Below are positions 1,850 through 39,700 of a stretch of DNA of 57,936 nucleotides, piece after piece. The translations under genes and the position numbers were made by a program. Origin of the DNA: a virus (taxonomy: Duplodnaviria; Caudoviricetes); the IMG/VR virus record IMGVR_UViG_3300037424_000596, positions 1-57,936 of that record; one strand, written 5' to 3'. The first letter of the stretch is position 1; each line of letters opens with the position of its first letter. Below the pieces are notes generated by a model. It was not told the DNA's origin and ran no database searches. It saw nothing but the letters and a program-made list of their open reading frames with translations.

Positions 1850-2865
1850 GCGCAAAAGACCAATTGATAACCGAAGATTATGCTATTTATTGCAGCGATA
1901 GCATGGAAGTGTTACCGACTATCCCATCAGAATCAATCGACTTAAGCATTTATTCGCCGCCCTTTGCTGGGCTGTACAACTACAGCAGCAGTGAGCGCGA
2001 TTTTTCCAACTGTGAAAGCAAAGATCAATTTCTTGAGCAGTATGATTTCCTTGTGGCAGAAATGGCGAGAGTCACAAAGCCGGGAAGAATTACTGCTGTT
2101 CATTGTACAGACGTTTTCGATAACTCTTGTTTCTTGTGGGACTTCCCGCACGAGATTATCAAGATCCACGCCAAGTACGGGTATCACTACCGCAACCGAA
2201 TCACGACATGGAAAGAGCCTTTGAAAGTCAGAATGCGCACGATGGTTAAGAGCCTGATGCACAAGCTGATAGTGGAAGACTCCACACAGTGCTTTACTGC
2301 CATGCCTGATTATGTGCTGGTGTTCACTAAGAATGGCCAGAACCAAGTGCCTGTAACGCACCCTTGTGGCATGAAATACTACGCAGGCGAGACACCGATT
2401 TTGCCAAACATTTTGCAGGCTTGGAATAATGCCAACGACTCCAAATTGACAGCAGAGGAATTGTGGGAGCGACTGAACACCATGTTCCATGATGCGAGCG
2501 ACCCAAAGACAAACAAGCTCAGTCATTACATCTGGCAGCGCTATGCCTCCAGCGTTTGGGATGATATCCGGATCGACAACGTGTTGCCGTACCGAGACAG
2601 CAAGGAAGATGACGATGAAAAGCATGTGCACCCGCTGCAGCTTGATGTGATCGACAGGCTGGTGGACTTGTATAGCAATCGCGGCGAGGTGGTGCTGACC
2701 CCGTTCATGGGTGTTGGTAGTGAGGTATACAGCCCGGTCTCAATGGGGCGCAAGGCCATCGGCATAGAACTCAAGGACAGCTATTACAAGCAGGCTATTA
2801 TAAATTTGCAGCACGCCAAAGACAGGTTCAAGAAGGAGGATCAGCGTCAGGAGATGCTGATATGA
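1846..2865 (+). CDS. DNA N4-cytosine/N6-adenine methyltransferase (beta-class motif order)
   Basis: Catalytic motif IV YSPPF near the N-terminus, SAM-binding TPFMGVGS and IGIELK near the C-terminus; ATGA-coupled to the helicase. Confidence 0.9.
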   Translation: MSAKDQLITEDYAIYCSDSMEVLPTIPSESIDLSIYSPPFAGLYNYSSSERDFSNCESKDQFLEQYDFLVAEMARVTKPGRITAVHCTDVFDNSCFLWDFPHEIIKIHAKYGYHYRNRITTWKEPLKVRMRTMVKSLMHKLIVEDSTQCFTAMPDYVLVFTKNGQNQVPVTHPCGMKYYAGETPILPNILQAWNNANDSKLTAEELWERLNTMFHDASDPKTNKLSHYIWQRYASSVWDDIRIDNVLPYRDSKEDDDEKHVHPLQLDVIDRLVDLYSNRGEVVLTPFMGVGSEVYSPVSMGRKAIGIELKDSYYKQAIINLQHAKDRFKKEDQRQEMLI

Positions 2866-3659
2866 AAGACTTGCTCGGAAAAGACGAAGAAGTGGTAGCC
2901 GGCCAGATGCCCAACTTTGAAGACTTCTACAAGCACTATCCGGTGAAGAAGTCACGTAAAGTGGCCGAAAAATCATGGGAGCGGAAGAATATCACGTGGG
3001 ATCAACTGCGCATCATCGTGATCGACATCCGGCGCCGGCTGAAGTGGCGCGAGTGGCGACTGGAAGAACCGCAGTACATCCCTCACCCATCGACCTACTT
3101 GAATCAAGAGCGATGGACGGATACCGAGGATCTGCTGGCGCAACGAGCGGACAGCAATAATTTTGTGGCGCTGCCACCGGCAAACAAAAATGGGGTCATT
3201 GAGCGTGACTGGACTCCTGACGCTGAAGCTGTGGCCATTCTGCAGCGTGGGGGTATAAGCGTGCCATTTATCGAAGACGCCGTGGCTGAATTCGCCTTGT
3301 ACTGGAGAGAAAACGCCACACCAAATACGCAGTGGAACACGAAGTTCATCGCGCATGTGCGGCGCCAGTGGGTGAAGTACACGCATGCGCTGGAGCACGA
3401 CACCACACCGCGGCCGATCCCGCCGGATTTCCAGCCCGACCCGGCCTGCCTCGACGTGCTGGCCATGGCCAACATCGACATCGACTTCGCGCTGGCGCAG
3501 CTGCCTGAATTCCTGCTGTACTGGCAGGACCGCAAAGAGGCGCACAGCTCCTGGAACACCAAGTTCCTGCAGCACGTCAAATACAAGTGGGCGCAGCACA
3601 TGCAGCCGGCCGGTCAACCGCTGCTGGAGCGCCTGACAGACCGGAGCTGGGCAGAATGA
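2862..3659 (+). CDS. Replication protein with two DnaT-like ssDNA-binding repeats
   Basis: Phage replication-protein N-terminus (FEDFYKHYPVKK...YIPHPSTYLNQERW), then two repeats of W/F-x-PD...EF-x-LYW...WNTKF-x-x-HV. Confidence 0.75.
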   Translation: MKDLLGKDEEVVAGQMPNFEDFYKHYPVKKSRKVAEKSWERKNITWDQLRIIVIDIRRRLKWREWRLEEPQYIPHPSTYLNQERWTDTEDLLAQRADSNNFVALPPANKNGVIERDWTPDAEAVAILQRGGISVPFIEDAVAEFALYWRENATPNTQWNTKFIAHVRRQWVKYTHALEHDTTPRPIPPDFQPDPACLDVLAMANIDIDFALAQLPEFLLYWQDRKEAHSSWNTKFLQHVKYKWAQHMQPAGQPLLERLTDRSWAE

Positions 3660-5254
3660 ACACATTATTGGATTTCGGCAGTATCTGCAGCGGTATTGAA
3701 GCGGCAAGCGTGGCATGGGAGCCGTTGGGCTGGCGCGCATCGTGGTTCAGTGAGATTGACCCTTTTGCCAACTCGGTTCTGGCGCACCACTTCCCCGACA
3801 CCCCAAACCATGGCGACATGACAACGCTACCGGAGCGCATCCGATCCGGCGAAGTAAAAGCACCGAGCCTGCTATGCGGTGGCACCCCCTGCCAGGCGTT
3901 CAGCGTGGCCGGCAACCGCGAATCGCTGGGCGATGCCCGTGGCAACCTTTCCCTTGTTTTCTGTGGAGTAGCAAATGCAATTGACGATGTTCGACAACAA
4001 CGAAGTGAGCCAGAAGCCATCATCGTGTGGGAAAACGTGCCAGGCGTCCTCAGCACCAAGGATAACGCCTTCGGCTGCTTTCTGGCAGAGCTTGCCGGCG
4101 AAGACAGCCCGCTGCAGCCTGCAGGGAAAAGATGGTCGGACGCTGGTTGTGTGTATGGACCCAAAAGGACGGTCGCATGGCGAATCCTTGATGCCCAATA
4201 TTTCGGCTTGGCCCAACGACGCAAGCGTGTGTTCGTTGTGGCAAGTGCTCGAAACGACTTTGATCCCTGCGCGGTACTTTTTGAGTTCGACGGCGTGCGC
4301 CGGGATTCTGCGCCGAGCCGAGAAGCGCGGGAAGAAGTTGCCGGAACCTTTGAGGCTCGCACTGGAGCAGGCGGTTTCCCCGGCACGGATGGAGCCTGCA
4401 GCAACCACGTTGTCCCAGGATGCTGGTGGGACGGCGGACAAATAAGCCAGACCCTCGACGCAGTCCTTTACAAAGGCCAGACGATGCCGGAGAAGAACCG
4501 GTTTCCGGCAGTGCTGCAGCCGGTTGCTATCACGCAGTTCGGCGAAACCGCGGGCACGCTGACAGCGCGGCACGACAGCAGCCCATGCCACGACAGGGGA
4601 ATGAATGTCGTTGCTTTCCATCCCACGCAAGACCCAATCAGCAGTACCGATGGCAGCACGCATGCTTTAGGGTGCGGATCGTCAGGCGGACAGGCAAGCG
4701 TAGCGGTGGCGGTATCACTGCGAGGCCGGGAGGGTGGAGGCACTGCAGAGCTTGGCGATGATCTGCAAAACTGCTTGCGAGCATCAGGTGGCGGAGGCGA
4801 CAAGCCGCATGTGCTTACAGGTATCGCCTACCCACTCGACCTACGCAACGCCCTGCGCGACCCGGAGAAGTATGACGAGCAGAACCGCCAGGGTGTCGGC
4901 ACTGGTGATGATGGCGACCCAGCCCCAACGCTGACTAAGGCGCATGTGCATGGAGTGGCGACCGCCATGCAAGTCCGCCGCCTCACAGCCCGCGAGTGCG
5001 AGCGGCTGCAGGGATTTCCGGACAACTGGACGCTGGTCCCGCACGGCACGAACCGCGCGAAAGACTTCCGGGAATGGCTGGAGTACCTGCGCCTGCGCAT
5101 CGGTGGTCTGACTGAGAAAGAGGCGCGCACCCTGGCCGCTGACGGCCCGCGCTACAAAGCCATCGGCAATAGCTGGGCTGTGAATGTCGCCCACTGGCTC
5201 GGCGCCAGAATCGACAAACACCTACAGGAGGTTGGTCTGGAGAAGCAACAATGA
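3656..5254 (+). CDS. DNA cytosine-C5 methyltransferase
   Basis: Motifs I (CSGIEA), IV (GGTPCQAFS), VI (ENV), VIII (QRRKRVF), IX (RRLTARECERLQGFP), X (RYKAIGNS); start placed at ATG 3656 (ATGA overlap) rather than 3587. Confidence 0.93.
   Translation: MNTLLDFGSICSGIEAASVAWEPLGWRASWFSEIDPFANSVLAHHFPDTPNHGDMTTLPERIRSGEVKAPSLLCGGTPCQAFSVAGNRESLGDARGNLSLVFCGVANAIDDVRQQRSEPEAIIVWENVPGVLSTKDNAFGCFLAELAGEDSPLQPAGKRWSDAGCVYGPKRTVAWRILDAQYFGLAQRRKRVFVVASARNDFDPCAVLFEFDGVRRDSAPSREAREEVAGTFEARTGAGGFPGTDGACSNHVVPGCWWDGGQISQTLDAVLYKGQTMPEKNRFPAVLQPVAITQFGETAGTLTARHDSSPCHDRGMNVVAFHPTQDPISSTDGSTHALGCGSSGGQASVAVAVSLRGREGGGTAELGDDLQNCLRASGGGGDKPHVLTGIAYPLDLRNALRDPEKYDEQNRQGVGTGDDGDPAPTLTKAHVHGVATAMQVRRLTARECERLQGFPDNWTLVPHGTNRAKDFREWLEYLRLRIGGLTEKEARTLAADGPRYKAIGNSWAVNVAHWLGARIDKHLQEVGLEKQQ
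3975..4445 (+). CDS. Nested +1-frame gene inside the C5 methyltransferase (probable small/beta subunit)
   Basis: ATG preceded by GGAG at 3965-3968; C-terminal SLWQVLET..IPARYFLSSTACAGILRRAEKRGKKLP resembles alternative-frame polypeptides of phage C5 methyltransferases. Confidence 0.7.
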   Translation: MQLTMFDNNEVSQKPSSCGKTCQASSAPRITPSAAFWQSLPAKTARCSLQGKDGRTLVVCMDPKGRSHGESLMPNISAWPNDASVCSLWQVLETTLIPARYFLSSTACAGILRRAEKRGKKLPEPLRLALEQAVSPARMEPAATTLSQDAGGTADK

Positions 5255-11991: not shown

Positions 11992-12043
11992 CCTGCCAGT
12001 CAGTAACGGCACCTTCGCGGGTGTGGCTGGCGGGCTTTTTCTT
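11992..12043 (+). terminator. Terminator-like hairpin immediately upstream of terL
   Basis: CCTGCCAGTC (11992-12001) pairs with GGCTGGCGGG (12025-12034), followed by CTTTTTCTT. Confidence 0.5.
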
Positions 12044-12053
12044 CGGAGCCGCG

Positions 12054-14528
12054 ATGTCAGATAACCGGGTAATCCAATACCACCCACCTGGCCCGGTGTC
12101 GCTGAACTTCCTGCGCTCCAGAGCTTTCATCAGCGCCATTAAAGGACCCGTCGGATCCGGCAAAAGCACCGCCTGCGTGATGAAGATTCTCCGCAACGCT
12201 CAAATGCAGCCAATCAACAGCACCGGTTTCCGATCATCCCGCTACGCCATCATCCGCAACACCGCCCCCGAGCTGAAATCCACCACCATGAAGACCTGGC
12301 ACCAGTGGGTGCCGAAGTCGACCGGGCACTGGGTAGGTCAGGGACCGCCGACGCACCACATCCGCGACCCGATCAGCAAGCTGGACATGGAAGTGATGTT
12401 CGTTGCACTGGATTCCCCGGACGACGTGCGCAAGGTGTTGTCGATGGAGTTGACCGGCGCCTGGGTGAACGAAGCCCGCGAGATACCCAAGGCTATCATT
12501 GACGGCCTCACTGGCCGTGTCGGCCGCTACAAGCCTGCAGTGGACGAAAAAATCTATGCCTTCGAGCCGCAGCTGATCATGGATACCAACCCGCCAGAAG
12601 ATGATCACTGGTGGTACGTGATGGCAGAGCAGGACACCAGCACTGAGTTTGGGCGCAACATCCTGCGCAGCATGGAAGAGTCAGAGATAGAGCTGCGCAA
12701 TGCCGGCCTGTTGGCTCCCGGGCAGAAGTTGTTCGAGTTCTTTGGCCAGCCAGGTGCCTATGCCCCGGGAGCCGAGAACATAGAGAATCTGTCCCCCGGC
12801 TACTACGCGCGCACCAAGGCCGGCAAAGATGCTGACTGGATTAAGGTTTATGTGGATGCCGAATATGGCTTTGTGAAGACCGGCAAAGCAGTGTTCCCAG
12901 AGTACAGGGACAGCCTGCACTGCAAGGAAATCGAGCTGATCCCCGGCCTGCCAATCATGGTTGGCCTCGACTTCGGTCTGAGCCCGGCCGCCATCTTCGG
13001 CCAGTGCACCGAGTACGGTCAGTGGAGGATCTACAGCGAACTGTGCGGCGAAGGCATGAACATCTTCCAGTTTGCCGATGCCATCAAGCGCCACGCATCA
13101 CAGATGTATCAGGGCTGGAAGATCACCAAGATCACTGGTGACCCAGCCGGAAACAGTCGCAGCTCAACCGATCCAGAAACCCGCACGTCATTCCAGCTGC
13201 TGCACACCAAGAAGGTCTATGCCACACCGGCATCGACCAACGACATGACCACGCGCAAGGCTGTGGTGCAGCAACCCCTTACCCGAATCGTCAATGGTGA
13301 GCCTGGCATGCTCATTCACAAGCGCTGCAAGCTGCTACGCAAAGGTATGGCTGGCGGCTACTGCTACAAACGCGTGCCGGTGGCTGGAGAAGACCGGTAC
13401 CAGGACAAGCCAGACAAGAACCGCTACAGCCACCCATGCTTCGCGGCGGGCACCCTGATCACTACCCCGTCAGGCGTGACGCCCATCGAAAACCTGAATG
13501 CGGGAGACATTGTTAACACTCCGCTTGGGCCGCGCATCATTAGGTCAGCATTCAATAGGCCGGCCGATACCATCGCCCTTGAATTCTCCAATGGCACCAT
13601 AATAACCAGCACGCCAGATCACCCATTCTTCACGCAAGAAGGTTATGCTCGCGCCGATGCACTACAATACTCTCACCTAATAGGCACGGAGAGTAGATTG
13701 TGGAAATTCCTGTTCAAGTCGCTGCATTACGATCAAGGGCAAAGTGGCCGATTTACGAATTTCGTGGTCAGCGTTATTACCTTCGCGCTGGATACTACAA
13801 GATCGCGCAGGGCGACTACCTTCACAGGGCGGTTTGGGAAGCAAACTATGGCGCCATCCCAGACAGATGTCATGTTCACCACAAAGATGGAGACACCACA
13901 AACAACCACCCGGAAAATTTGCAGTGTCTTACCGAAAATGATCATGCGTCCTACCACAGTAGCCAGCCTGAGCGCGTTGCAGCATCCCGCAGAAATATTC
14001 GGAAAGCCGTTGATGCGGCGGTTGTTTGGCGGCGCAACAATCCTGAAGCGGCCTCTGAGCTTGGAAAGCTTGCCGGGAGAGCTGCTGCAGAAGTTTTGGC
14101 CTTGCAGCCAAAAGAAACTGCGCAATGCGCATACTGCGATCAACCATACGAAGTTCTCACCATTTACAAAAAAAGAGGGTTCTGCTCTTCATCGTGCCAG
14201 TCCGCCGCGCGAAGGATGTCTGGGGTGGATGATGAGACTCGCGCATGCTGTATTTGCAGCACTGGGTTCAATGCAAACCGCTATACGAAGAAACGCACCT
14301 GTTCGCCTGACTGCAAGAAGCGCCTGCTTTCCAGGGCACGTATACAGCATTGAAGTTGATGATGCGCATTGCTACTACGCAAATGGGCTGCTGGTCAGCA
14401 ACTGTGACGCATTACAGTATCTGTTGCTCGGCGGCGGCGAATTCACGAAGATTATGGACGCCGGCAACGACAATGTGCGCCCGGACATCCTGGAAACTTA
14501 CGAACACTACGTTGATGGAGTCATGTAA
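12054..14528 (+). CDS. terL: Terminase large subunit, intein-containing
   Basis: Walker A GPVGSGKS, Walker B GAWVNEA, coupling motif MDTNPP, nuclease motifs GLDFG, GDPAG and SHP-[intein]-CDALQY; GGAG RBS before ATG 12054; directly upstream of the portal. Confidence 0.93.
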   Translation: MSDNRVIQYHPPGPVSLNFLRSRAFISAIKGPVGSGKSTACVMKILRNAQMQPINSTGFRSSRYAIIRNTAPELKSTTMKTWHQWVPKSTGHWVGQGPPTHHIRDPISKLDMEVMFVALDSPDDVRKVLSMELTGAWVNEAREIPKAIIDGLTGRVGRYKPAVDEKIYAFEPQLIMDTNPPEDDHWWYVMAEQDTSTEFGRNILRSMEESEIELRNAGLLAPGQKLFEFFGQPGAYAPGAENIENLSPGYYARTKAGKDADWIKVYVDAEYGFVKTGKAVFPEYRDSLHCKEIELIPGLPIMVGLDFGLSPAAIFGQCTEYGQWRIYSELCGEGMNIFQFADAIKRHASQMYQGWKITKITGDPAGNSRSSTDPETRTSFQLLHTKKVYATPASTNDMTTRKAVVQQPLTRIVNGEPGMLIHKRCKLLRKGMAGGYCYKRVPVAGEDRYQDKPDKNRYSHPCFAAGTLITTPSGVTPIENLNAGDIVNTPLGPRIIRSAFNRPADTIALEFSNGTIITSTPDHPFFTQEGYARADALQYSHLIGTESRLWKFLFKSLHYDQGQSGRFTNFVVSVITFALDTTRSRRATTFTGRFGKQTMAPSQTDVMFTTKMETPQTTTRKICSVLPKMIMRPTTVASLSALQHPAEIFGKPLMRRLFGGATILKRPLSLESLPGELLQKFWPCSQKKLRNAHTAINHTKFSPFTKKEGSALHRASPPREGCLGWMMRLAHAVFAALGSMQTAIRRNAPVRLTARSACFPGHVYSIEVDDAHCYYANGLLVSNCDALQYLLLGGGEFTKIMDAGNDNVRPDILETYEHYVDGVM
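13437..14402 (+). mobile_element. Intein (322 aa) in the TerL nuclease domain
   Basis: Block A CFAAGTLITTPSG, block B TPDHPF (TxxH), block F VYSIEVDDAHCYYANG, block G LVSN followed by Cys+1. Confidence 0.92.
13700..14353 (+). CDS. HNH homing endonuclease with C-terminal zinc fingers, nested out of frame in the intein
   Basis: LHRAVWE..YG.IP...HVHHKDGDTTNNHPENL......H; two CxxC...CSxxC fingers; GGAG at 13688-13691 before GTG 13700. Confidence 0.9.
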   Translation: MEIPVQVAALRSRAKWPIYEFRGQRYYLRAGYYKIAQGDYLHRAVWEANYGAIPDRCHVHHKDGDTTNNHPENLQCLTENDHASYHSSQPERVAASRRNIRKAVDAAVVWRRNNPEAASELGKLAGRAAAEVLALQPKETAQCAYCDQPYEVLTIYKKRGFCSSSCQSAARRMSGVDDETRACCICSTGFNANRYTKKRTCSPDCKKRLLSRARIQH

Positions 14529-16885
14529 TGCAGACTGAAGAGACTCAGCAAACCACGGAAGACGATGACAGCAAGAAGGCTCGCTTTGATCTGCTGAATG
14601 CGTTCGGGCAATCGCTGTCAAAAACGCGGTCCGATGCCATTAACGCCCGCCAGAGTTCCGGCATCGAGGATATCTGGCGCGAGGACGAAGAGTTTTACGA
14701 GGGTGTCGACGACCTGAACCGGGGCGATGAGCGCTCCTTCACGCACTACAAACCGCCCCAGGGCGGCACCAATCGGACAGCATCCAACGGCAACGGCACG
14801 GTACGCCGATCCCGCGTGTTCCCGAACATCACCGCCCCCTACGTTGATTCCATCGCTGCACACATTTCCGACATCCTGATCCCAACTGACGACCGACCCT
14901 GGGGATTGGATCCAACACCGGTACCGGAACTGGACGAGTTAGCTGATGAGTTTGCGGCCGAGAACCCGGACCAAGCTGCTGCCGACAAGAAGAAGGGTTT
15001 CTTCTCCCGCATGAAGGGAGCCCTCACCGGACAGCCAGGAAAGCCAGCCGCAGACGGACCCACCCCAGAAGAGGCTTTCCGCAAGCGGAAGCTGGCCCGC
15101 GCTATTGCCGACATGACGCAGACTCGCATCTGGGACTGGCAGGTGGAAAGCCAGTTCAACGCCGAGCTGCGCCGCATTGTTGAAGATGGGTGCCGTGTCG
15201 GTGCAGGCATCATCAAAGGCCCAACGGCCAAAATGAAGGAATCACTGGGCTGGAGTCCTGCATCGGAGAAGCTGGACCCAGCTACCGGTTTGCCGGTCAA
15301 GACAGAAGCCGGCATGGTGGTGCGCCGCGAAACGATCCCCTGCAGCAAGCGCGTCGATTTCTGGAACTTCTACCCACATGGCGGGTGCGGTCAGGACATC
15401 CAGAATGGCGATTACACCTGGGAGCGTGACTACATCACCACCCGGCAGCTGATGAAGCTGTCTCGTGACGAGAACTACATTGGCGAGCAGATCATGCTGG
15501 CCCTGCAAGAAGGCCCGATGCGCGCCAACGCCACGGTGCAGGAAAGCCCAAGTGTTGCCGGCGACCTGCAACGCCGCGACCTGTACGAAATCTGGTTCGG
15601 CTACTGCACGGCGAAGACTGAAGACCTGGTAGCAGCCGGCTTTGATTTTGCTGAGGAAGGCGAAGGTAAAGGCTTGAGCATTGATGTGGCTGTGACCATG
15701 GTGAATGATCGCGTCATCAAGATCGCCCTGCCCCCGGTGGACCACTGTGGTTTCCCTTACGATGTGTTCTGTGTTCGCAAGCGCAACAACTTCTGGGCTG
15801 GTATTGGCTACAGCCGCATGATCCGTACCCCACAAAAGATTGTCGTGGGCGCTACCCGCTCAATGATGGACAACGCTGGGCTGGCTGGCGGTCCCATGAT
15901 CGTATTCAAGCAGGGTGTGGTCCGGCCGGCAGATGGTGTCGCCGGTATCGGACCCCGCAAAATCTTCTACATCAGCAAAGATGACACCAGTATTGCGGAT
16001 GCCACCAAGGCCATTGGCCAGATCAAGGTGGACATGATGGTGGACGAAATGCTGACCATCGTGAACTTCGGACTCAGGCTGGCCGAAGACACCACGGGCT
16101 TCCCCATGCTCATTCAGGGGCAGATGGGTGGCGCACCGGACAGAGTGGGAGTGGTACAGGCAATGGAACGCAATACCAACGCCGTAAAGCGCCGCATTGC
16201 CCGCAACTTCAGCGATGACGTGATCTACCGCCATGTGCGCCGGTACTACGCCTGGCACATGACCTACGGACCCGACAACGAGAAGGGCGACCTGCAGATC
16301 AACGTCAAAGGCTACGGTGCACTGGTGGAGCGCGACATCCAGAATCAAGAACTTGCCGGCATGTTCGCCATCATCACCGACCCACGCTTTGAGTTGGATC
16401 CACTGAAATGGCGCGATGAGTATTTGCGCAGCCGCCATATCAACCCAGAAACCATGGCCATTGATGACGAGCAGCGTCAGCAGCTGTACCAACGCTGGAA
16501 CGAGATTCTGCAGGCCAGCGGTGAAGACCCGCGCGTCAAAGTGGCCGAGATTGGAGCACAGGCACGCATTGGTGTGGCCCAGCTCAACGCTGAAATGCAG
16601 GGCGCTATCCAGATTAATCGTCAACAGCATGAGGCCGAGCAGGCCGAACTGGACCGTATGACCACACTGGTTGGCCGAGCAATCGACAAAGAGTTGATGG
16701 GGCTGCAGCAGCAAGGCGTCAGCGAAGATGTCACGCGCAAAATCAAGGCTGATCTGGCTAAAGAGGTTATGAAGATTACGTCGACCATGCGCCTGGCCGG
16801 CGTGAAGGCGCGGGCTGATCTGATGCCCAAGCCACCCATCGAGCCAATCGGCAGAGCTCCGGCTGGCGAATCGTTTCAGAAGTAA
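14528..16885 (+). CDS. Portal protein
   Basis: 785 aa, TAATG-coupled to terL; helical, with a Q/E-rich coiled-coil C-terminus as in podovirus portals. Confidence 0.85.
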   Translation: MQTEETQQTTEDDDSKKARFDLLNAFGQSLSKTRSDAINARQSSGIEDIWREDEEFYEGVDDLNRGDERSFTHYKPPQGGTNRTASNGNGTVRRSRVFPNITAPYVDSIAAHISDILIPTDDRPWGLDPTPVPELDELADEFAAENPDQAAADKKKGFFSRMKGALTGQPGKPAADGPTPEEAFRKRKLARAIADMTQTRIWDWQVESQFNAELRRIVEDGCRVGAGIIKGPTAKMKESLGWSPASEKLDPATGLPVKTEAGMVVRRETIPCSKRVDFWNFYPHGGCGQDIQNGDYTWERDYITTRQLMKLSRDENYIGEQIMLALQEGPMRANATVQESPSVAGDLQRRDLYEIWFGYCTAKTEDLVAAGFDFAEEGEGKGLSIDVAVTMVNDRVIKIALPPVDHCGFPYDVFCVRKRNNFWAGIGYSRMIRTPQKIVVGATRSMMDNAGLAGGPMIVFKQGVVRPADGVAGIGPRKIFYISKDDTSIADATKAIGQIKVDMMVDEMLTIVNFGLRLAEDTTGFPMLIQGQMGGAPDRVGVVQAMERNTNAVKRRIARNFSDDVIYRHVRRYYAWHMTYGPDNEKGDLQINVKGYGALVERDIQNQELAGMFAIITDPRFELDPLKWRDEYLRSRHINPETMAIDDEQRQQLYQRWNEILQASGEDPRVKVAEIGAQARIGVAQLNAEMQGAIQINRQQHEAEQAELDRMTTLVGRAIDKELMGLQQQGVSEDVTRKIKADLAKEVMKITSTMRLAGVKARADLMPKPPIEPIGRAPAGESFQK

Positions 16886-33702: not shown

Positions 33703-36700
33703 ATGGCCACCAATCCCTTCCTGGCACGCCGTGTAGATCAGCCGGCTGCCGCACCATCCAACCCTTTTCTGGCCCGCAGAACTGATCCAGTCGCCACCCC
33801 TCAAGACGAGGGGCGAGGCGTTTCTGGTGTCGTGGCAGATTTGTGGCGCAGCTACGCCGGGGGATCCAATGCACTCCTGAAAATAGCTGGTGACATGTAC
33901 GGCCTGACTACTGGAGACATGGACAACTGGGCCAGCAATCAAGGCCAGCGTGGCACGGAATACTGGCAGGAACGCAAGACACCCCAGCTGAAAGCCTTGG
34001 AACAGCAGCGTAAAGAGCGGGTGGATTCAACTGATTCTGAACTGGGCAAAGCCGGTGTAGCCTTCTGGGAAACCATGAAGTCCCCCTCTCTCCTGTCCTC
34101 ATTCATCTTCGAGCAGATGCCACAATTGCTGCCGGTGGGCGGTATCGGCCGTGGTGCCGGTTTGGCGGCCAAGGCTATGGGCGCCGGCGCCAAGACAGCT
34201 GGCGCAGTGGCTACCGGTGCTGCTGTGGGTACAGGCTCAGCCATGCAAGGCGCCGATGCGGGCGGGCAAGCCTTTGAAGACCTGATGACCATCCCGAACG
34301 ATGTCTGGCTGCTCGACCCTGCCGTGGCGCGCCGTGTGGACCGTGGCGAGGATTTGGACGCCGTGAAGCGGGATGTGGCTGGCAGGCTGTCCAGAAACGC
34401 CGCCGTATCCTCTGCCATCGTTTCCGTAGGCCTGAACATGCTCCCGGGTGCCCGGGTGCTGGAAAGGGCGCTGGCAGGCGCCAAGCTGCCGCAGGGGCGC
34501 GTAACCGGTGCGCTGAGTGGCTACCTTGGCGAATCGCTGCAGGAAGGCCTGGAGGAAGGTACAGGCCGCTACTTCGCCAATCTGGCCACCGGCAAGGTCG
34601 ACTCCACCGTTGACCCAATGGGCGGCGTGGGTGAAGCCACCGGTCTTGGTGCTGCTGGCGGTATCTTCGGCGGTATTGCTGGGGCCATGGGCGGCCGGCG
34701 CCGGGAGGAAGAAGAGCAGATCAACCGGATCATTGATGCCCCTGATGTGGATGAGGCAATCAAGGCGGCCGGCGATGCAATTGATATGAACACAGATCAA
34801 GCCACGGCCCGCGCAATGCCAGACTGGGGACTGGTGCCGAAAGGTGAGGAAACGCCCGGTGGCCGCGCTCCTGGCTCAGTCGATTTCGCGCCAACCTACC
34901 CAACCTTGGATGCTGATCTGGTGCCCATGGACATGCCAACCGATGAGGAATTGGCCGAAATCATGCGCCAGCGTGACGCCGCCTTCCGCCAGCGCGAAGA
35001 AGAGCAGGCACGCAAGAAGGATGAGGACTTTGCACTGGCTGCCCAGCAGAAGGCTGATCAGGAGGTGGAGGAAGCCCTGATCCGTGCCAACCTTGCCGGC
35101 GATGATGCAAACCCTGCCATGAAACTGGCCTTTGAAGCGGCGCTGCGCAAGAAAAAATCCGAGTGGGTAGGATTTACTCCGGACACCGGCACCTTAAACG
35201 TGCCCCGGGCAGAAATGCCACAAATCAAGGCCGAACACCGCGGCGCCATGGTTAACTTCCTGAAAGCGCGCGGCATTGAGAGCACGCAAGAATCGGTGCC
35301 GGCTGATACGCTGAAGCCAACCCAAGCCGAGTTCTCGCCTGCCAAGGTGGCTCAAGCTAAAAAATTCAAAGGTGGCGATCGATCCATCTTGGTATCCAGT
35401 GACAACTACGTGATTGATGGACACCACCAGTGGCTATCCCGCCAGGGGCAGGACATCAAGATCATTCGCTTGGACAAACCGGCAGCAGAACTGCTGGATG
35501 ATGTGCGCGCCTTCCCAAGCGCAGGAAGTGCAGCTGGCGCAACATCACCACAGATTTCCAGTGAGCCAGAGCTGATTCCTGATTTTGTCACTCCCAACAA
35601 GCTGCGCGGGTATGCCCAGAACCGACTCAGATACCTTGCCGACAAGAGTACGGCCGGCACGTTGTCCGCCGTAGAGCGCCGGGAACAGGCCTTCCTTGGT
35701 CCTGATGTCTTGACCAATACCGAAGCGCTGGCAGAGTTCTATGAGGTCACCCTGGACACCACACAGGAAGCTGCCAGTGCCCGTGCAGCTCAGATACGGA
35801 ACATTGTCGACAAAGCACCCAATCTGAAGCAGGCCCGTGTCGACATCGCTGCACAGTTGGGCGATGCGGTTACAGCTGAACAAGAGCAGGCCATCAAGGC
35901 GGCATGGAGCAGCAAACAGCAGAAGCGCCGGCAGAAAATCAATGATCGAGACTCGCTTGCAACGGCCGTAGCCAAACTGGGCGGCATCAGCATGGAATGG
36001 CGCGTTGATATCACTGGCGACACCAAAATCAACAAAACAGTGGCAGGCATTGGACCTGTATTCAGCAAGAGCGGCACCAGTCCGGATGACATGGCATCCA
36101 TGTTGGCGCAGCGTGGATACTTCACTCAGCAGGACATCGACAACCCGCAGGATAGCGATGCCGTCAATTTGCTCAGCGAACTGTTGCGCACAGAGTTGGC
36201 TGGTGGCAAGAAGCGCTACCAGTTGTCATCTACCGCTGCCGAGGAAGAACTGGAAGCCCTGTATGCAGCCCAGGCAGAGCAGGCTGAAGCCCAGCGAGAA
36301 ATGGAGTATGATGCCATCGCTGCCGAGTTCGGGCAGGACGCTGCAGATCAAGCAAGAGCTTACGATGAGGCCTTGATTCAGCTTTCCGCAGAGCTCGAAA
36401 AAGAAACTGAGCGCCAAATCCTCGACCAGAAGGAGACCGATCGTGAACAAGCAAATGCCGAAGATGCCACCGAAACCACCGCATACGACGAAGTTTGGGC
36501 AGGCTATGACGAAGAAGGTACAGACCCAGCAGAAGATGCTGGAGAAATTGCGCAAGGCGTCCGCCAAATAACACCCGATTTCTTCCTCACGACCGAAACT
36601 GAGGAAGAAAGGCGCGAACGCGAACAGCGCGCATCAGATCAAACCATCGAACAGAAAGATCAAGCCAACCGAGAGCTCGAGTTTTTTGATCTTGCCAAGC

Positions 36701-39700
36701 CTCCCGGTGCTACTACCGAGAAAGCCCCTACCAGCCAGCAGTCATTGCTTGGAATGACCACGCGCGGCCAGCGGCAGGCTCAGGAATCTGCCACTCAACC
36801 AGAGCCAGCCAAACGCTACGGCGATTCCAGCAACTACATCATGAACAGCAATGGTCAGCCTTTCGCTACCGAAGAAGAGGCTGATCAAGTCATTGCTACG
36901 CAAGGCATCAATACCAGCCAGTCAGTGCCCGTGCAGGGCGGATGGGCAGTCGATCCTTACTACCATGTTCCACAGCGCCGCGCGAAGCCTGGCGGTGAAC
37001 GTGGTGCCAATGGCGAGTGGTACGAAGGCGGCAAGTTCATTGCTACCAGTGAAAGGACTGTGAAAGGGGAGCAGACCCGTCCTTCAACGCCAGCCCAGCC
37101 TGAAGGCAATCCCATCATTGGTTTCGGCAAGTACCGTGGCCGCGATGTGCGCGAACTGATCAATTCGAAAGTGCCGGCCGAACGCAACTATGCGCAGTGG
37201 ATGGCTGAGAGCTTGATGAGTTCGCGGCCTGAACTGGCGCCCTACCTGAAGCCACTGCTTGAGCAAGGTAAGCCAGCTCCGCAAATCAGGATGGACGTGA
37301 ACACCCCAGCTATCCTGTCCCAGCTTGGCCTTGTCGTGAACCGTGACGGCGATTCCTTCCTGGTATCCGGCAACACCTACATGGTGCGCGCCACCATGAA
37401 CCAGATGGGCGGCCGGTTTGACTACAACACGAAGGCGTACCGTTTCCAGACAGACCCTTCCCAGGAAATTGCCAGCGCTTACGCTGATGAATCCGGGCAG
37501 GCAGTGGATGTCGATATCCTTGATCCGAAAGGCAAGGCGCTGCGCGAACAGGCCAAGGCCAAACGCAAAGAGCTGGATCAAGCATCAAACGAGAAACCGA
37601 CACCAGCGAAACTGGCTGCTGAAGTCAGTCAGGGGACCAAGGATCTGGTACGGCGCGGCCTGCAGTTCGGCATGACTGAAGATGTAGTCAAAGAGCAGAT
37701 CGAGGATATCGGACAAATTGTGTGGGCTTACAAAGCCGACAAACCAATGTTCATGCTGGCCAGCGAGGCCGGCAGCGGCAAAACCTTTGTGCTCGGCGGC
37801 GCCATCAAGGAAATCCTGCGCTCAAACCCAAAGGCAAACTTCACCTATGTGGCGATGAACCAGAACCTGATCGAGCAGATCAAGAGCGATCTTGCCCCTT
37901 ATGGCATTGCCGACAAAATCAGTTTCTTCACATACACAGACGTTTCTGGCAACACCAAAGCCGCCAACGATATGCGCATTGGTCCAGAGACTGTTCTGCT
38001 GTTCGATGAAGCGCACAATATCAAGAACATTGATCAGGCAGCTCGTGCGGCCCGGGCTATGGGATTGGCTGCAGATTCGAAATACACCGTCTATGCCAGT
38101 GCCACGCCTTATGAGAACCCGGTGGAAATGAAGTACCTGGAGCCAACCGGTGTGTTTGATTCGCTGAATGGTCATACCAACTTCGCACTAGCCTACGGCG
38201 CAAAACTTGAGCCGCAGCTGGTTTACGAGTACGGCAATCCCGTCACTGTGATGAAGCCAGTATGGCCGGGCGGCAAAGAGGCACGCGAGTCTGCCAAGGC
38301 TGCGCGTGACTGGTTCGACAAACGCGGCATGTTCACCCAGCGCCGCAAAAGGCTGCCAGCCGGCATGGTTAAGTCGGCATTCAAATCGGTTGAAGCCTCA
38401 CCAAAATACGTTGAAATGTTCAACCGTGTCACAGATGCTTACGATGCTGCACTGGATGAGGTATCAAGCACCGTCCTGCGCATGCACAAAATGAACGTGC
38501 AGAAGCGAATCCTTGAAGCGGCGAAGGTGAACGATGCCATTGCCCAGGCAGAGCAGGCCATTGCTGAAGGCATCCAAGCTGTTATTTTTGTGGAAACAAA
38601 GTCTGAGCGCACCATTGGAAATGAAGTTCCTTATGAGCAGATGCTGGAAGAAATGCTGGTGTGGCAGTCCACGCGCGATGATGGCGATCCACCCCCCTAC
38701 CCTGCATGGAAAATGGCGCTGGCCAAGGCTTTCGATGAAGACGGTATTAACTATGATCTGCCATCGACCGTGGACGCGATCTACACCCACTTTGGCCCAA
38801 CCGCTACCGGCGTGTATGTGGGCGCCAAGAAATTCGACACAGTAAGCGTCACCGAAAAGTCAGCGCAGCGAGATAAAGAAGAATGGCTGGCCGGCAAGAA
38901 GCAGGTACTGGTAGCTACGATGGCCAAGGGAGGTACAGGCCTTTCTCTGCACCCGACCAAGACAAACAACCCAAGGAAGCAGATCGGCATCAACCTGCCA
39001 TGGAAGGCAACCGGTGTTGATCAGGTCAGTGGTCGTCTTGCGCGTTACGGCATGCAGAGCGAAGTGGGTATTGACTGGATATTTGCCAGCAACATTCTGG
39101 TTGAGCTCACCATTGCCCGCCGTGTTGGTTCGCGCATGGAGTCCATGGGTGCCACAGTATCCGGCATCACGATGAAGTCTGCTGACCAGCTGCAGGAATG
39201 GGATTTTGAGGCTGGTGAAGAAATCAATGTCTCGGAGCGCTCCACAGTCTTTGGTGTTGAGGAAGACGGTGGACCATACCGTCCAATGAACCAGCAAGAC
39301 ATGTTTTTAGAGCTGGATAAAGTGAAGAAAGCTGCCAAGGAAGATCCGTACAAGGATGCCGAGCTGCGCCCAGACACCACACCAGAACAGCTGAAACTTG
39401 GCCGTGATGCCATGAAATCAATGTTCAATATGGTGTCGCGTCGACTGGCCAGGCTGACCGGAGATAATCAATCCTTCAGTGTGCTTGGCGCCAGGCTCTT
39501 CAAGGATTTGGCCACGCAGCAATCAGGCTCGCTTATTGGGCAGGAAGTGCGCACGCCAGAAGATTTGGCTGTGATTGCACAGGTGTATCGTGATCCGCGT
39601 TTTGAGACCTTCCGCATCATTTATACCAAGAAGCAGGATGATGGCACTATTCAGGTAGTTGCAGAAACGGCTGTCACTTCCCGCCTTCCCGCTATCGTCA

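What the first reader, a model, noticed from the sequence alone, without database searches (positions are those of the whole stretch)
13437..14402. TerL intein whose HNH homing endonuclease is overprinted in another reading frame
Seen: a complete intein (C1, TxxH, block F, terminal Asn, Cys+1) is inserted at SHP|CDALQY, just before the last conserved Asp of the terminase nuclease domain. Between the splicing regions the intein frame has no endonuclease motif; it reads as T/M/K-rich filler yet has no stop for about 218 codons. The same DNA in a shifted frame (13700-14353) encodes an intact HNH nuclease with two zinc fingers, a GGAG RBS, GTG start and TGA stop, all inside the intein. Established: intein endonucleases are normally in-frame domains of the intein polypeptide. 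Inference: this is a two-frame selfish element in which protein splicing removes the filler and the nuclease is translated separately, uncoupling homing from TerL synthesis. I recall alternative-frame HNHs being reported in some actinobacteriophage insertion elements, so novelty needs a literature check.
Basis: partly seen in the sequence, partly recalled or inferred. Interest (0 to 1): 0.9.

Follow-up and report, generated by a model that had tools for sequence, protein, structure and literature searches.

The report
Terminase intein with frame-shifted HNH gene
A phage DNA-packaging gene carries a self-splicing protein insert whose homing nuclease is a separate gene in another reading frame of the same DNA; this layout is real and widespread, and its kind was first described in 2025.

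Summary
The TerL ORF (12021-14528) holds a canonical class-1 intein (13437-14402). Inside it, one base out of phase, lies an intact 217-aa HNH_3 / I-HmuI-like nuclease gene (13700-14353) with its own GGAG, GTG start and TGA stop.

It is not an assembly error. Of 77 full-length relatives fetched, 58 have the same nesting with the intein frame at HNH+1, and 2 use the other frame. Seven are "fractured" terL genes with a split intein and the HNH gene between the halves. Four have the HNH free-standing after an intein-less terL.

In 10 of 10 locus pairs the HNH frame is under purifying selection (dN/dS 0.09-0.26). The overlapping intein frame is only kept free of stops. AlphaFold2 gives pLDDT 93 for the HNH frame and about 45 for the same DNA read in the intein frame, while the two Hint halves score 93-98.

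[quoted passage not shown] This element is therefore a new member of a known kind: an HNH_3 family at one motif of the TerL nuclease domain, found in phages of many phyla. Splicing, separate translation and homing are inferred, not shown.

The parts
12021..14528 (+). terL precursor ORF: 835 aa, N-extein + intein + C-extein, stop included. The true start may be the ATG at 12054.
   Evidence: phrog_2 terminase large subunit E 4e-26; 42-43% identity to the TerL of Burkholderia phages BcepC6B, KL4 and vB_E332, starting at residue 18. ATG at 12054.
12021..13436 (+). N-extein of TerL (472 aa), ending ...DKNRYSHP
   Evidence: colinear with intein-less BcepC6B TerL across the junction (DKNMYSHV|AEASQYLL), with no gap.
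13437..14402 (+). Class-1 intein, 322 aa, from Cys1 to the terminal Asn
   Evidence: C1, T59/H62 (block B), V302, V320 and N322 are conserved in a 52-sequence alignment. Hint fold.
13437..13706 (+). N-terminal splicing lobe of the intein (residues 1-90, blocks A and B)
   Evidence: pLDDT 93-98 for residues 1-80 and 85 for residues 81-90, beta strands. Foldseek top hits are the gp41-1, DnaB and RecA mini-inteins (E 2.7e-6 and weaker).
13707..14300 (+). Intein-frame filler (residues 91-288): stop-free, Thr-rich, no family match, predicted mostly unstructured
   Evidence: no Pfam match in this stretch; mean pLDDT 44-60 per 10-residue block, with no secondary structure from residue 126 to 288; no purifying selection in this frame in relatives.
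14301..14402 (+). C-terminal splicing lobe of the intein (residues 289-322, blocks F and G, ending VSN)
   Evidence: pLDDT 90-96 for residues 291-322, four strands. VY.L.V...H.(F/Y)(F/Y)ANG.LV(H/S)N is conserved.
13687..13690 (+). GGAG Shine-Dalgarno-like motif, ending 9 nt before the HNH GTG start
   Evidence: sequence; 24 of 60 distinct nested relatives have GGAG, GAGG or AGGA before a candidate start, against about 20% expected by chance.
13700..14353 (+). HNH homing-endonuclease gene (217 aa). In the frame one base behind the intein frame, so intein codons start at HNH codon position 2.
   Evidence: HNH_3. AlphaFold2 mean pLDDT 93.0; the only PDB sequence hit is I-HmuI, E 6.7e-6. I-HmuI Z 8.1, rmsd 3.6, 75 residues aligned; purifying selection in this frame.
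14111..14347 (+). Two C-terminal zinc-ribbon / treble-clef-like modules of the HNH protein (residues 138-216; Cys 143, 146, 162, 166 and the second CxxC...CxxxC set)
   Evidence: C143 and C146 invariant, C162 and C166 nearly invariant; two hairpin+helix units; treble-clef families match 11 and 9 of 66 members.
14403..14528 (+). C-extein of TerL (41 aa, CDALQY...) plus the stop. Carries the D-A of the conserved H-x-x-D-A-x-(R/Q)-Y nuclease motif.
14528..16885 (+). Portal gene directly downstream (context)
   Evidence: SU10_portal, E 4.4e-10.

Best explanation
The window is a viral contig. Its terL gene is invaded, at the last conserved motif of the nuclease domain (H-x-x-D-A-x-R/Q-Y), by a composite selfish element.

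The element has two parts:
- A class-1 intein whose two splicing lobes are read in the terL frame.
- An I-HmuI-like HNH_3 endonuclease with two zinc ribbons. It occupies the usual endonuclease position between the lobes but is a separate gene in the -1 frame, with its own ribosome-binding site, start and stop.

Proposed mechanism (inferred):
1. Ribosomes translating terL read through the HNH gene out of phase and make about 200 residues of unstructured linker.
2. The intein lobes fold around this linker and splice it out, giving a 513-aa TerL.
3. Internal initiation at 13700 gives the free 217-aa nuclease.
4. The nuclease nicks or cuts intein-less terL alleles in co-infecting phages, so that repair copies intein and nuclease together.

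Selection therefore acts on the HNH protein in the overlap. On the intein frame it acts only to keep it free of stops.

What is shown: the layout, its conservation, the pattern of selection and the predicted folds. What is inferred: splicing, separate translation and homing.
For: Anatomy.

Conservation:
- 9 of 9 IMG/VR loci found with the HNH protein have the same nesting.
- Of 106 fetched loci with a tblastn hit, 77 match 120 or more of the 217 residues. Of these, 58 are nested in an ORF of 300 aa or more in the +1 frame, 2 in the +2 frame, 2 are cut by contig ends, and 15 have no spanning frame.
- The 58 include two sets of three loci with identical HNH proteins.
- Of 68 spanning ORFs, 55 match Intein_splicing, 44 Hint_2, 27 Terminase_3 and 26 Terminase_6N.
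- 63 of 67 relatives pass the C1 ... N | C/S/T boundary test.

Open frame is selected:
- The 15 non-nested relatives carry a mean of 5.7 stops in the +1 frame (2.8 per 100 codons).
- Nested relatives carry 0 in the +1 frame but 8.5 per 100 codons in the +2 frame.

Which frame codes:
- In 10 of 10 pairs, substitutions pile up at HNH codon position 3.
- HNH dN/dS is 0.09-0.26 in the 7 pairs where dS is not saturated, against 0.74-2.5 in the intein frame over all 10 pairs.
- HNH amino-acid identity exceeds filler identity in all 10 pairs.
- In the N-terminal splicing lobe the intein frame has dN/dS 0.05-0.42, in the 7 of 9 pairs where it is computable.

Folds:
- HNH frame pLDDT 93.0, with I-HmuI as top hit by profile and by structure.
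- In the intein frame, the lobes score 93-98 and the filler 44-60; mini-inteins are the top hits.

Exteins are colinear with an intein-less TerL.

Cultured phages carry the nested form, so it is compatible with a working terminase: Tetrasphaera phage TJE1, Acinetobacter phage Highwayman and Clostridium phage phiCDHM19. Rhodobacteraceae phage LS06-2018-MD07, a deposited genome with no host on record, carries it too.

No indels: contigs from a second sample cover 13533-13895 and 14280-14500 with 0 differences.

Start signals: 49 of 57 predicted starts are ATG. A core SD is present in 24 of 60 loci, against about 20% expected by chance.
Against: - There is no experimental evidence here for splicing, for translation of the HNH ORF, or for cleavage.
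- Only 24 of 60 relatives show a clear SD.
- No promoter-like site above chance lies near the HNH start: 2 found against 1.6 expected in shuffles.
- The penultimate intein residue is Ser, not the common His. Other family members share this.
- For the window alone, stop avoidance is only moderately improbable (P 0.007-0.08).
- The run check used assembled contigs, not raw reads, and the only full-length holder may be the source sample.
- No close intein-less allele of this particular terL was found. The nearest intein-less relatives are 42-43% identical, so recent mobility of this copy is not shown.
Confidence: 0.85

Rival explanations
1. Assembly or sequencing artefact: two compensating indels hide an ordinary in-frame HNH intein.
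For: The window is a metagenome-derived viral contig. In-frame HNH_3 inteins do exist: L089 in DNA polymerase A and L101 in an SNF2 helicase, and cyanophage CL131 dCTP deaminase (PMC6293099, passages read).
Against: The same phase relation is found in 58 of 77 relatives from independent samples and in deposited phage genomes. The HNH frame is closed by TAG one codon before its start and by TGA at its end. Contigs from another sample are identical across both junctions.
Confidence: 0.01
2. The nuclease is not made separately. It is joined to the intein polypeptide by programmed ribosomal frameshifting into and out of the HNH frame, restoring a conventional intein-endonuclease fusion.
For: In some relatives the HNH frame is open well upstream of the homology: 159 codons in L002 and 90 in L010.
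Against: In the window the HNH frame is closed one codon before the GTG. In many relatives it is closed within 1-7 codons of the start. The HNH ORF always ends in its own stop, 4-82 nt before the intein end, so a second shift would be needed. I saw no slippery heptamer at 13697-13720 on reading the sequence. Free-standing and split-intein relatives make the same protein as an independent gene.
Confidence: 0.04
3. The HNH protein is no longer (or not only) a homing nuclease. It is a domesticated helper of packaging or recombination, like the HNH proteins next to terminase genes in HK97-like phages, or this copy is an inert relic.
For: Relatives sit between terL and portal in Pseudomonas phage PAE1 and Salmonella phage Shemara, and in Lactobacillus phage CL2, where terL is split. 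HNH nucleases next to terminase genes with zinc ribbons are known nicking enzymes with a proposed packaging role (PMC3592412, passages read). No close empty allele of this terL was found.
Against: The family is HNH_3 / I-HmuI-like, a homing type. It is absent from the nearest TerL relatives. It occurs in unrelated TerL families with HNH identity far above extein identity, and the rank correlation between the two is only 0.13. The window copy keeps every invariant residue of the family.
Confidence: 0.1
4. The insert is removed at the RNA level: a group I intron carrying an HNH ORF sits inside a mini-intein.
For: HNH_3 / I-HmuI-type nucleases are typical of phage group I introns (1u3e is intron-encoded).
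Against: An Rfam E-value scan of 13200-14700 gives no intron match, only a chance-level snoRNA hit at E 0.46 on the other strand. An intron would not need the host frame to stay open through it, yet it is open in 58 relatives.
Confidence: 0.01

Closest known systems
[quoted passage not shown]
   Same: The nuclease ORF lies between the splicing blocks, on the same strand, in frame 3 relative to the intein (the same phase as here). The intein-frame stretch has no recognisable structure. The authors propose an origin by invasion of an intein by a free-standing endonuclease gene. Terminase large subunit is among their host proteins.
   Different: Their nuclease is assigned to IPR004211 (endonuclease VII), and their HNH inteins are in-frame. 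Here 66 of 66 family members are HNH_3 and none matches Endonuclease_7 at E <= 0.01. Their set is limited to PhagesDB actinophages. This family spans phages and MAG contigs labelled Pseudomonadota, Bacteroidota, Bacillota, Actinomycetota, Nitrospirota and a Thermoplasmatales archaeon.
Fractured genes: split inteins with a free-standing endonuclease gene between the halves (Dassa et al. 2009, NAR, PMC2677866; passages read)
   Same: Seven relatives have exactly this layout in terL, including Lactobacillus phage CL2; Vibrio phage 1.245.O, fetched separately, has it too. The layout is TerL-N+IntN ORF, then the HNH gene, then an IntC+TerL-C ORF that overlaps the 3' end of the nuclease gene. Dassa et al. 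describe the same kind of overlap (6-69 bp).
   Different: In the window the intein is contiguous. Their endonucleases were GIY-YIG and Vsr-like; they only predicted that HNH could fracture genes. Their one terminase locus was gp17-like with an unusual break point.
ShiLan-type out-of-frame HNH insertion in a phage DNA methylase (Arsenault et al. 2025, Genes, PMC11855218; abstract and discussion read)
   Same: An HNH gene with a GTG start is hidden in another frame of an insertion that stays open in the host frame.
   Different: That insertion has no splicing domains and is thought to stay in the protein. Here canonical intein lobes flank the overlap.
In-frame HNH inteins, e.g. cyanophage CL131 dCTP deaminase intein with HintN + HNH_3, shown to self-excise (PMC6293099; passages read)
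   Same: The same nuclease Pfam family sits at the same position inside a Hint domain.
   Different: There the nuclease is part of the intein polypeptide. Here it is a separate translation product.
[quoted passage not shown]
   Same: A broadly distributed intein whose endonuclease is in an overlapping frame under purifying selection. Secondary invasion of a mini-intein is proposed.
   Different: A cellular host gene. The words HNH and terminase do not occur in that text. By the account of the 2025 preprint, the dnaX case is an antisense LAGLIDADG.

Membership tests
Class-1 intein (Hint superfamily) | Cys/Ser at position 1, block B TxxH, blocks F/G ending in Asn, Cys/Ser/Thr at +1, all in frame with the exteins | tested here: met
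   C1, TPDH, VYSIEV...YANGLLVSN|C. C1 and N322 are invariant in 52 sequences.
Class-1 intein (Hint superfamily) | Hint fold formed by the N- and C-terminal lobes | tested here: met
   pLDDT 93-98 for residues 1-80 and 90-96 for residues 291-322; 20 PDB matches at E <= 0.001, all listed ones inteins or BIL/Hint domains (gp41-1 at 2.7e-6).
Class-1 intein (Hint superfamily) | Removal restores a colinear host protein | tested here: met
   exteins align without a gap to BcepC6B TerL across the junction.
Class-1 intein (Hint superfamily) | Protein-splicing activity | not testable with these tools
   Needs expression and a gel or mass spectrometry. Indirect support: cultured phages carry the same layout in their only terL.
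HNH_3 / I-HmuI-like homing endonuclease | HNH (beta-beta-alpha-metal) motif | tested here: met
   PF13392, E 4.7e-16; 66 of 66 family members match. H60, H61, D63, N68 invariant.
HNH_3 / I-HmuI-like homing endonuclease | Fold like a solved homing HNH enzyme | tested here: met
   1u3e_M Z 8.1, rmsd 3.6, 75 aligned, next row Z 5.4; profile hit to 1u3e only, E 6.7e-6. Foldseek alone was weak (E 0.14).
HNH_3 / I-HmuI-like homing endonuclease | Site-specific cleavage of the element-free allele, and homing | not testable with these tools
   Only indirect: the element is absent from the nearest TerL relatives and present in unrelated TerL families.
Intein with out-of-frame homing endonuclease (Gosselin et al. 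2025 preprint) | Endonuclease ORF between the splicing blocks in a frame other than the intein's, while the intein frame stays open | tested here: met
Intein with out-of-frame homing endonuclease (Gosselin et al. 2025 preprint) | Endonuclease of the endonuclease VII-like type (IPR004211) | tested here: not met
   0 of 66 members match Endonuclease_7 at E <= 0.01; all are HNH_3. It shares the architecture but is not the same nuclease family.
Fractured gene / naturally split intein (Dassa et al. 2009) | Host gene in two ORFs, each ending or starting with an intein half, with an endonuclease gene between them | tested here: not met
   The window's intein frame is continuous. The feature is met in 7 related loci (L013, L014, L020, L028, L038, L050, L063) and in Vibrio phage 1.245.O.
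Group I intron with HNH ORF | Ribozyme core detectable in the insert | tested here: not met
   no intron family in Rfam 15 at E <= 1 in 13200-14700. A divergent ribozyme cannot be excluded by this alone.

The most novel reading that the evidence does not exclude
This HNH/terL-intein family is a living series of the steps by which homing endonuclease genes and inteins join and part.

The same nuclease is found in five states:
- free-standing just after an intein-less terL;
- between the halves of a split intein (fractured terL);
- overprinted inside a contiguous intein in the +1 frame;
- overprinted in the +2 frame (rare);
- in related HNH_3 genes, in frame inside inteins of other genes.

On this reading, contiguous and split states interconvert by gain or loss of stop codons in a linker that selection otherwise ignores. 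These inteins would then be able to splice both in cis and in trans.

The strong preference for one phase is set simply by how few stops that phase of an HNH gene contains: 2.8 against 6.4 per 100 codons in non-nested relatives.
Probability: 0.5. Interest if true: 0.75.

Novelty: new member of a known kind. Interest (0 to 1): 0.6.

Why it matters
- **Annotation.** Gene callers and annotators miss one of the two genes. In Tetrasphaera phage TJE1, Acinetobacter phage Highwayman, Clostridium phage phiCDHM19 and Rhodobacteraceae phage LS06-2018-MD07, only "terminase large subunit" is annotated over the HNH gene. In Lactobacillus phage CL2 the C-terminal piece of terL is not annotated. In Vibrio phage 1.245.O the HNH gene is not annotated.
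- **Evolution.** The family puts free-standing, split, overprinted and in-frame arrangements of one nuclease type side by side. That is the material needed to test the "endonuclease invades a splicing element" model of intein origin and the gene-breaking model of split-intein origin.
- **Overlapping genes.** It is a clean natural case where one frame is under protein-level selection and the other only under "no stop" selection. This is useful for calibrating methods that detect overlapping genes.
- **Protein engineering.** An intein that tolerates about 200 residues of arbitrary linker, with close relatives that work split, may be of interest as a splicing tool.

Tried and rejected
**Sequencing error.** Rejected.

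**Group I intron.** The Rfam scan found nothing.

**Internal promoter for the HNH gene.** The consensus scan gave 2 promoter-like sites against 1.6 expected, none convincing.

**Fused in-frame relatives of this HNH among longer proteins.** The search for homologous proteins with lengths 'longer' gave none among 2554 candidates. This is weak evidence, because in-frame HNH_3 inteins did turn up among the metagenome loci.

**Foldseek of the HNH model against PDB.** No match at E <= 0.001; I-HmuI was rank 2 at E 0.14. VIA-align and the profile search were clearer.

**Number of transitions between states.**
- The HNH tree is poorly resolved: 11 of 69 inner branches are starred.
- The best tree needs 4 changes for split versus the rest, and 7 for the three states.
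- An AU test does not reject a single clade of the 7 split loci (p-AU 0.4).
- The number and direction of transitions are therefore open. The tree left out L089, loci with fewer than 120 matched residues, and identical rows.

**RNA evidence.** No RNA holder is listed among the runs. The runs laid were assembled contigs only, so they say nothing on expression or on rare variants.

**Near DNA relatives in the phage collection.** Only 4 records, 9-10% of the query at 67% identity.

**Homology to the preprint's actinophage examples.** I could not test this directly because their accessions are in supplementary files, which are closed.

**Searches behind "not in print".** Searches found no paper describing an out-of-frame HNH_3 gene in a terminase intein or an HNH-fractured terL. 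Subscription journals are not covered.

**First hand-in.** I added it and changed nothing else.


Full report
**What is in the window.** The record is a 57,936-base linear viral contig from IMG/VR, estimated 81% complete.

ORF 12021..14528 (+, 835 aa) is a terminase large subunit. It matches phrog_2 at E 4e-26. Its first 472 residues are 42-43% identical to the TerL of Burkholderia phages BcepC6B, KL4 and vB_E332. A portal gene follows directly.

From 13437 to 14402 the ORF reads through 322 residues that begin with Cys and contain TPDH. They end VYSIEVDDAHCYYANGLLVSN, and Cys follows. Pfam sees Hint_2 and Intein_splicing at the two ends only.

A script joined the exteins in silico and aligned them with intein-less BcepC6B TerL. 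The alignment runs across the junction without a gap...DKNRYSHP|CDALQYLLLGGGE against ...DKNMYSHV|AEASQYLLVGAGE. The intein therefore sits inside the last conserved motif of the nuclease domain. That the Asp of this motif is catalytic is recalled knowledge, not tested here.

**The second gene.** One base out of phase, so that intein codons start at HNH codon position 2, lies ORF 13700..14353.
- It has a GTG start, with GGAG ending 9 nt upstream.
- An in-frame TAG lies one codon before the start, and the ORF ends in TGA.
- Its 217-aa product is PF13392 HNH_3 (E 4.7e-16) and phrog_15471 (E 8e-32).
- A 66-sequence profile finds one solved relative, the intron-encoded nicking homing endonuclease I-HmuI (1u3e, E 6.7e-6).
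- AlphaFold2 with that alignment gives mean pLDDT 93.0.
- VIA-align against about 48,000 PDB representatives puts I-HmuI first (Z 8.1, rmsd 3.6, 75 residues, model residues 2-88), with the next row at Z 5.4. Foldseek alone was weak.
- After the catalytic domain come a helical hairpin and two hairpin-plus-helix units carrying the CxxC...CxxxC sets.

**The same DNA in the intein frame.** AlphaFold2 of the 322-residue intein, with 52 homologous inteins, gives pLDDT 93-98 for residues 1-80, 85 for residues 81-90 and 90-96 for residues 291-322. These lobes pack as a Hint domain, and Foldseek's top hits are the gp41-1, DnaB and RecA mini-inteins. Residues about 100-280 score 44-50, with no secondary structure from residue 126 to 288.

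This filler is Thr-rich (11% against 5.7% in the extein) but not notably Met- or Lys-rich. It has no stop in 218 codons, while the third frame has 9. Given the HNH protein, this has P = 0.007, 0.03 or 0.08 under three null models.

**Is it an error?** No.
- A search of IMG/VR with the HNH protein gave 9 loci, and all 9 had the HNH ORF nested in a long TerL-intein ORF in the same relative phase.
- One scan each of GTDB genomes and JGI metagenomes, plus four phage records, brought the total to 106 loci with a tblastn hit.
- Among the 77 that match at least 120 of the 217 residues: 58 are nested in a +1-frame ORF of 300 aa or more, 2 in a +2-frame ORF, 2 are cut by a contig end, and 15 have no spanning frame. 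The 58 include two triplets with identical HNH proteins.
- Of 68 spanning ORFs scanned, 55 match Intein_splicing, 44 Hint_2, 27 Terminase_3, 26 Terminase_6N, 19 Terminase_3C and 12 Terminase_6C.
- 63 of 67 relatives pass an automatic C1...N|C/S/T boundary test. One of these, L021, has stops just upstream of the intein.
- Contigs assembled from a second sample and study cover 13533-13895 and 14280-14500 with no difference or gap. Those stretches span the two places where the coding phase changes. The one run that holds the whole stretch may be the source. These are contigs, not raw reads.

**Which frame is under selection.** In 10 of 10 pairs of nested loci (59-93% HNH identity), substitutions concentrate at HNH codon position 3.
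- Nei-Gojobori dN/dS in the HNH frame is 0.09-0.26 in the 7 pairs where dS is not saturated.
- In the overlapping intein frame it is 0.74-2.5.
- HNH identity exceeds filler identity every time, for example 0.76 against 0.47.
- As a control, the first 80 intein codons give dN/dS 0.05-0.42 in the intein frame, in the 7 of 9 pairs where it is computable.

So the phase of protein-level selection switches from the intein frame to the HNH frame and back.

Standard dN/dS is biased in overlapping genes, so I rely on the direction and consistency of the contrast rather than the values.

The non-nested relatives are a natural control for stop avoidance. They carry a mean of 5.7 stops in the +1 frame (2.8 per 100 codons), and 14 of 15 have at least one; the exception is cut by a contig end. 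They carry 6.4 per 100 codons in the +2 frame. Nested genes have none in +1 and 8.5 per 100 in +2. The lower stop density of the +1 phase also offers a simple reason why nearly all nested cases use it.

**Start and stop of the nested gene.**
- Predicted starts lie 212-296 nt into the intein in most loci, just after the N-terminal lobe, often within a few codons of an in-frame stop.
- 49 of 57 predicted starts are ATG.
- 24 of 60 distinct loci have GGAG, GAGG or AGGA upstream, against about 20% expected by chance. Many carriers are low-GC or Bacteroidota-like, where such motifs are not expected.
- The HNH stop lies 4-82 nt (median 55) before the intein end, so its last codons overlap block F.
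- C-exteins are short (median 32.5 aa).

**Insertion site.** All inteins sit in the motif H-x-x-D-A-x-R-Y of otherwise unrelated TerL families, at three adjacent positions: H|C-x-D-A, H-x|C-D-A and D-A|C/T-R-Y. One metagenome TerL whose last 200 N-extein residues are 57% identical to the window's carries its intein three residues further on, with Thr at +1 (L060).

HNH identity often far exceeds extein identity, and the two correlate weakly (Spearman 0.13 over 1599 pairs). This fits movement of the unit between terminase genes. Global alignments of unrelated exteins are crude, so I take this only as a trend.

**The non-nested relatives.** Seven of the 15 are fractured terL genes (L013 = Lactobacillus phage CL2, L014, L020, L028, L038, L050, L063).
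- The upstream ORF is TerL plus the N-terminal half of Intein_splicing (7 of 7) and ends soon after block B.
- The HNH gene follows.
- A short ORF overlapping its 3' end encodes ...VYN(M/L)(E/T)V...(V/S/T/L)HN|C(x)DA(x)RY..., that is, IntC plus the C-extein; L050 (...VYCISV...VKN|CDALRY) and L038 (...LHN|CDSLRC) depart from this pattern.

Vibrio phage 1.245.O has the same layout, with the HNH gene unannotated between "terminase large subunit" and a "hedgehog/hint domain protein".

Four loci have the HNH free-standing directly after an intein-less terL (Pseudomonas phage PAE1, L051, L055, L065). In Salmonella phage Shemara it lies between terL and portal on the other strand. One (L089) is an in-frame HNH_3 intein in DNA polymerase A, and L101 is another in an SNF2 helicase. 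Three are unclear (L022, L027, L075).

The HNH tree is poorly resolved. The best tree needs 7 changes among contiguous, split and free states, but an AU test does not reject a single clade for the split loci (p 0.4). So neither the number nor the direction of transitions is settled.

**Named carriers of the contiguous nested form.**
- Tetrasphaera phage TJE1 (terL 13379-15565)
- Acinetobacter phage vB_AbaM_Highwayman
- Clostridium phage phiCDHM19
- Rhodobacteraceae phage LS06-2018-MD07

In all four, only "terminase large subunit" is annotated over the HNH gene. At least the cultured ones show that the arrangement is compatible with a working terminase.

**How it most likely works.**
- Shown: the layout, its conservation, the selection pattern and the predicted folds.
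- Inferred: (1) terL translation reads through the HNH gene out of phase and makes a long unstructured linker; (2) the Hint lobes fold and splice, removing the linker; (3) internal initiation gives the free nuclease; (4) the nuclease nicks or cuts intein-less terL near the motif, and repair copies the whole unit.
- Rivals: error, frameshift fusion, intron and domesticated nuclease. They are weighed in their own sections.

**Comparison with the literature.** The idea is not new.
[quoted passage not shown] They propose invasion by free-standing endonuclease genes. Their HNH inteins are in-frame.
- Arsenault et al. 2025 (abstract and discussion read) describe a hidden out-of-frame HNH in a methylase insertion that has no splicing domains.
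- Phillips et al. 2026 (abstract and passages read) describe the dnaX intein.
- Dassa et al. 2009 (passages read) describe fractured genes with GIY-YIG or Vsr-like nucleases and predict that HNH could do the same.

Five full-text searches found no description of an out-of-frame HNH_3 gene in terminase inteins or of an HNH-fractured terL.

Here 66 of 66 family members are HNH_3 and none matches Endonuclease_7. I therefore file the window's element as a new member of a known kind. The added points are that the family is large, crosses phyla, keeps one phase, and contains contiguous, split and free states side by side.

**Verdict.** Novelty is moderate, and interest is 0.6.

Noticed in passing
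window 33703-45975 (+): A 4090-aa ORF of the 'polyvalent protein' type: LPD38 (2.4e-38), ART-PolyVal ADP-ribosyltransferase (3.9e-23), PBECR5 nuclease (1.2e-16), ResIII helicase and a RadC-like JAB domain.
   Followed up: partly
L013 (Lactobacillus phage CL2, NC_028835.1) 455-1951, 1967-2590, 2487-2771: The annotated 'terminase large subunit' ends in an N-terminal intein half. An annotated HNH gene follows. A short unannotated ORF overlapping its 3' end encodes the C-terminal intein half plus the TerL C-extein. This is a fractured terL in a cultured phage.
   Followed up: yes
L111 (Vibrio phage 1.245.O, NC_055736.1) 2387-3118: An unannotated HNH ORF lies between a TerL ORF that ends in an intein N-half and an annotated 'hedgehog/hint domain protein'. 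This is another fractured terL, in an N4-like phage.
   Followed up: partly
L089:2-1393 and L101:3047-5728: Related HNH_3 domains lie in frame inside inteins of a family A DNA polymerase and an SNF2 helicase. This is the conventional architecture.
   Followed up: partly
L059:2053-4608 and L078:2614-4602: Two inteins carry the HNH gene nested in the other alternative phase (+2). L078's host is confirmed as TerL by Pfam; L059 matched Intein_splicing only. The phase is therefore not absolutely fixed.
   Followed up: partly
L060 (metagenome contig) intein 3675-4640: The last 200 N-extein residues of this TerL are 57% identical to the window's. Its intein sits three residues further on in the same motif (D-A|T-R-Y, Thr+1). 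This suggests a separate invasion of a related terL.
   Followed up: partly
L021 3798-5156: The HNH ORF is intact, but the intein frame has stops just upstream of the aligned intein start. It is either a decaying copy or an assembly problem.
   Followed up: no
L113 (Salmonella phage Shemara) 2465-3055: An HNH homologue lies free-standing between terL and portal, but on the opposite strand to both.
   Followed up: no
window 12021-12056: The terL ORF as listed starts at GTG 12021. Homology to other TerL proteins begins at residue 18, and an ATG lies at 12054, which may be the real start.
   Followed up: no
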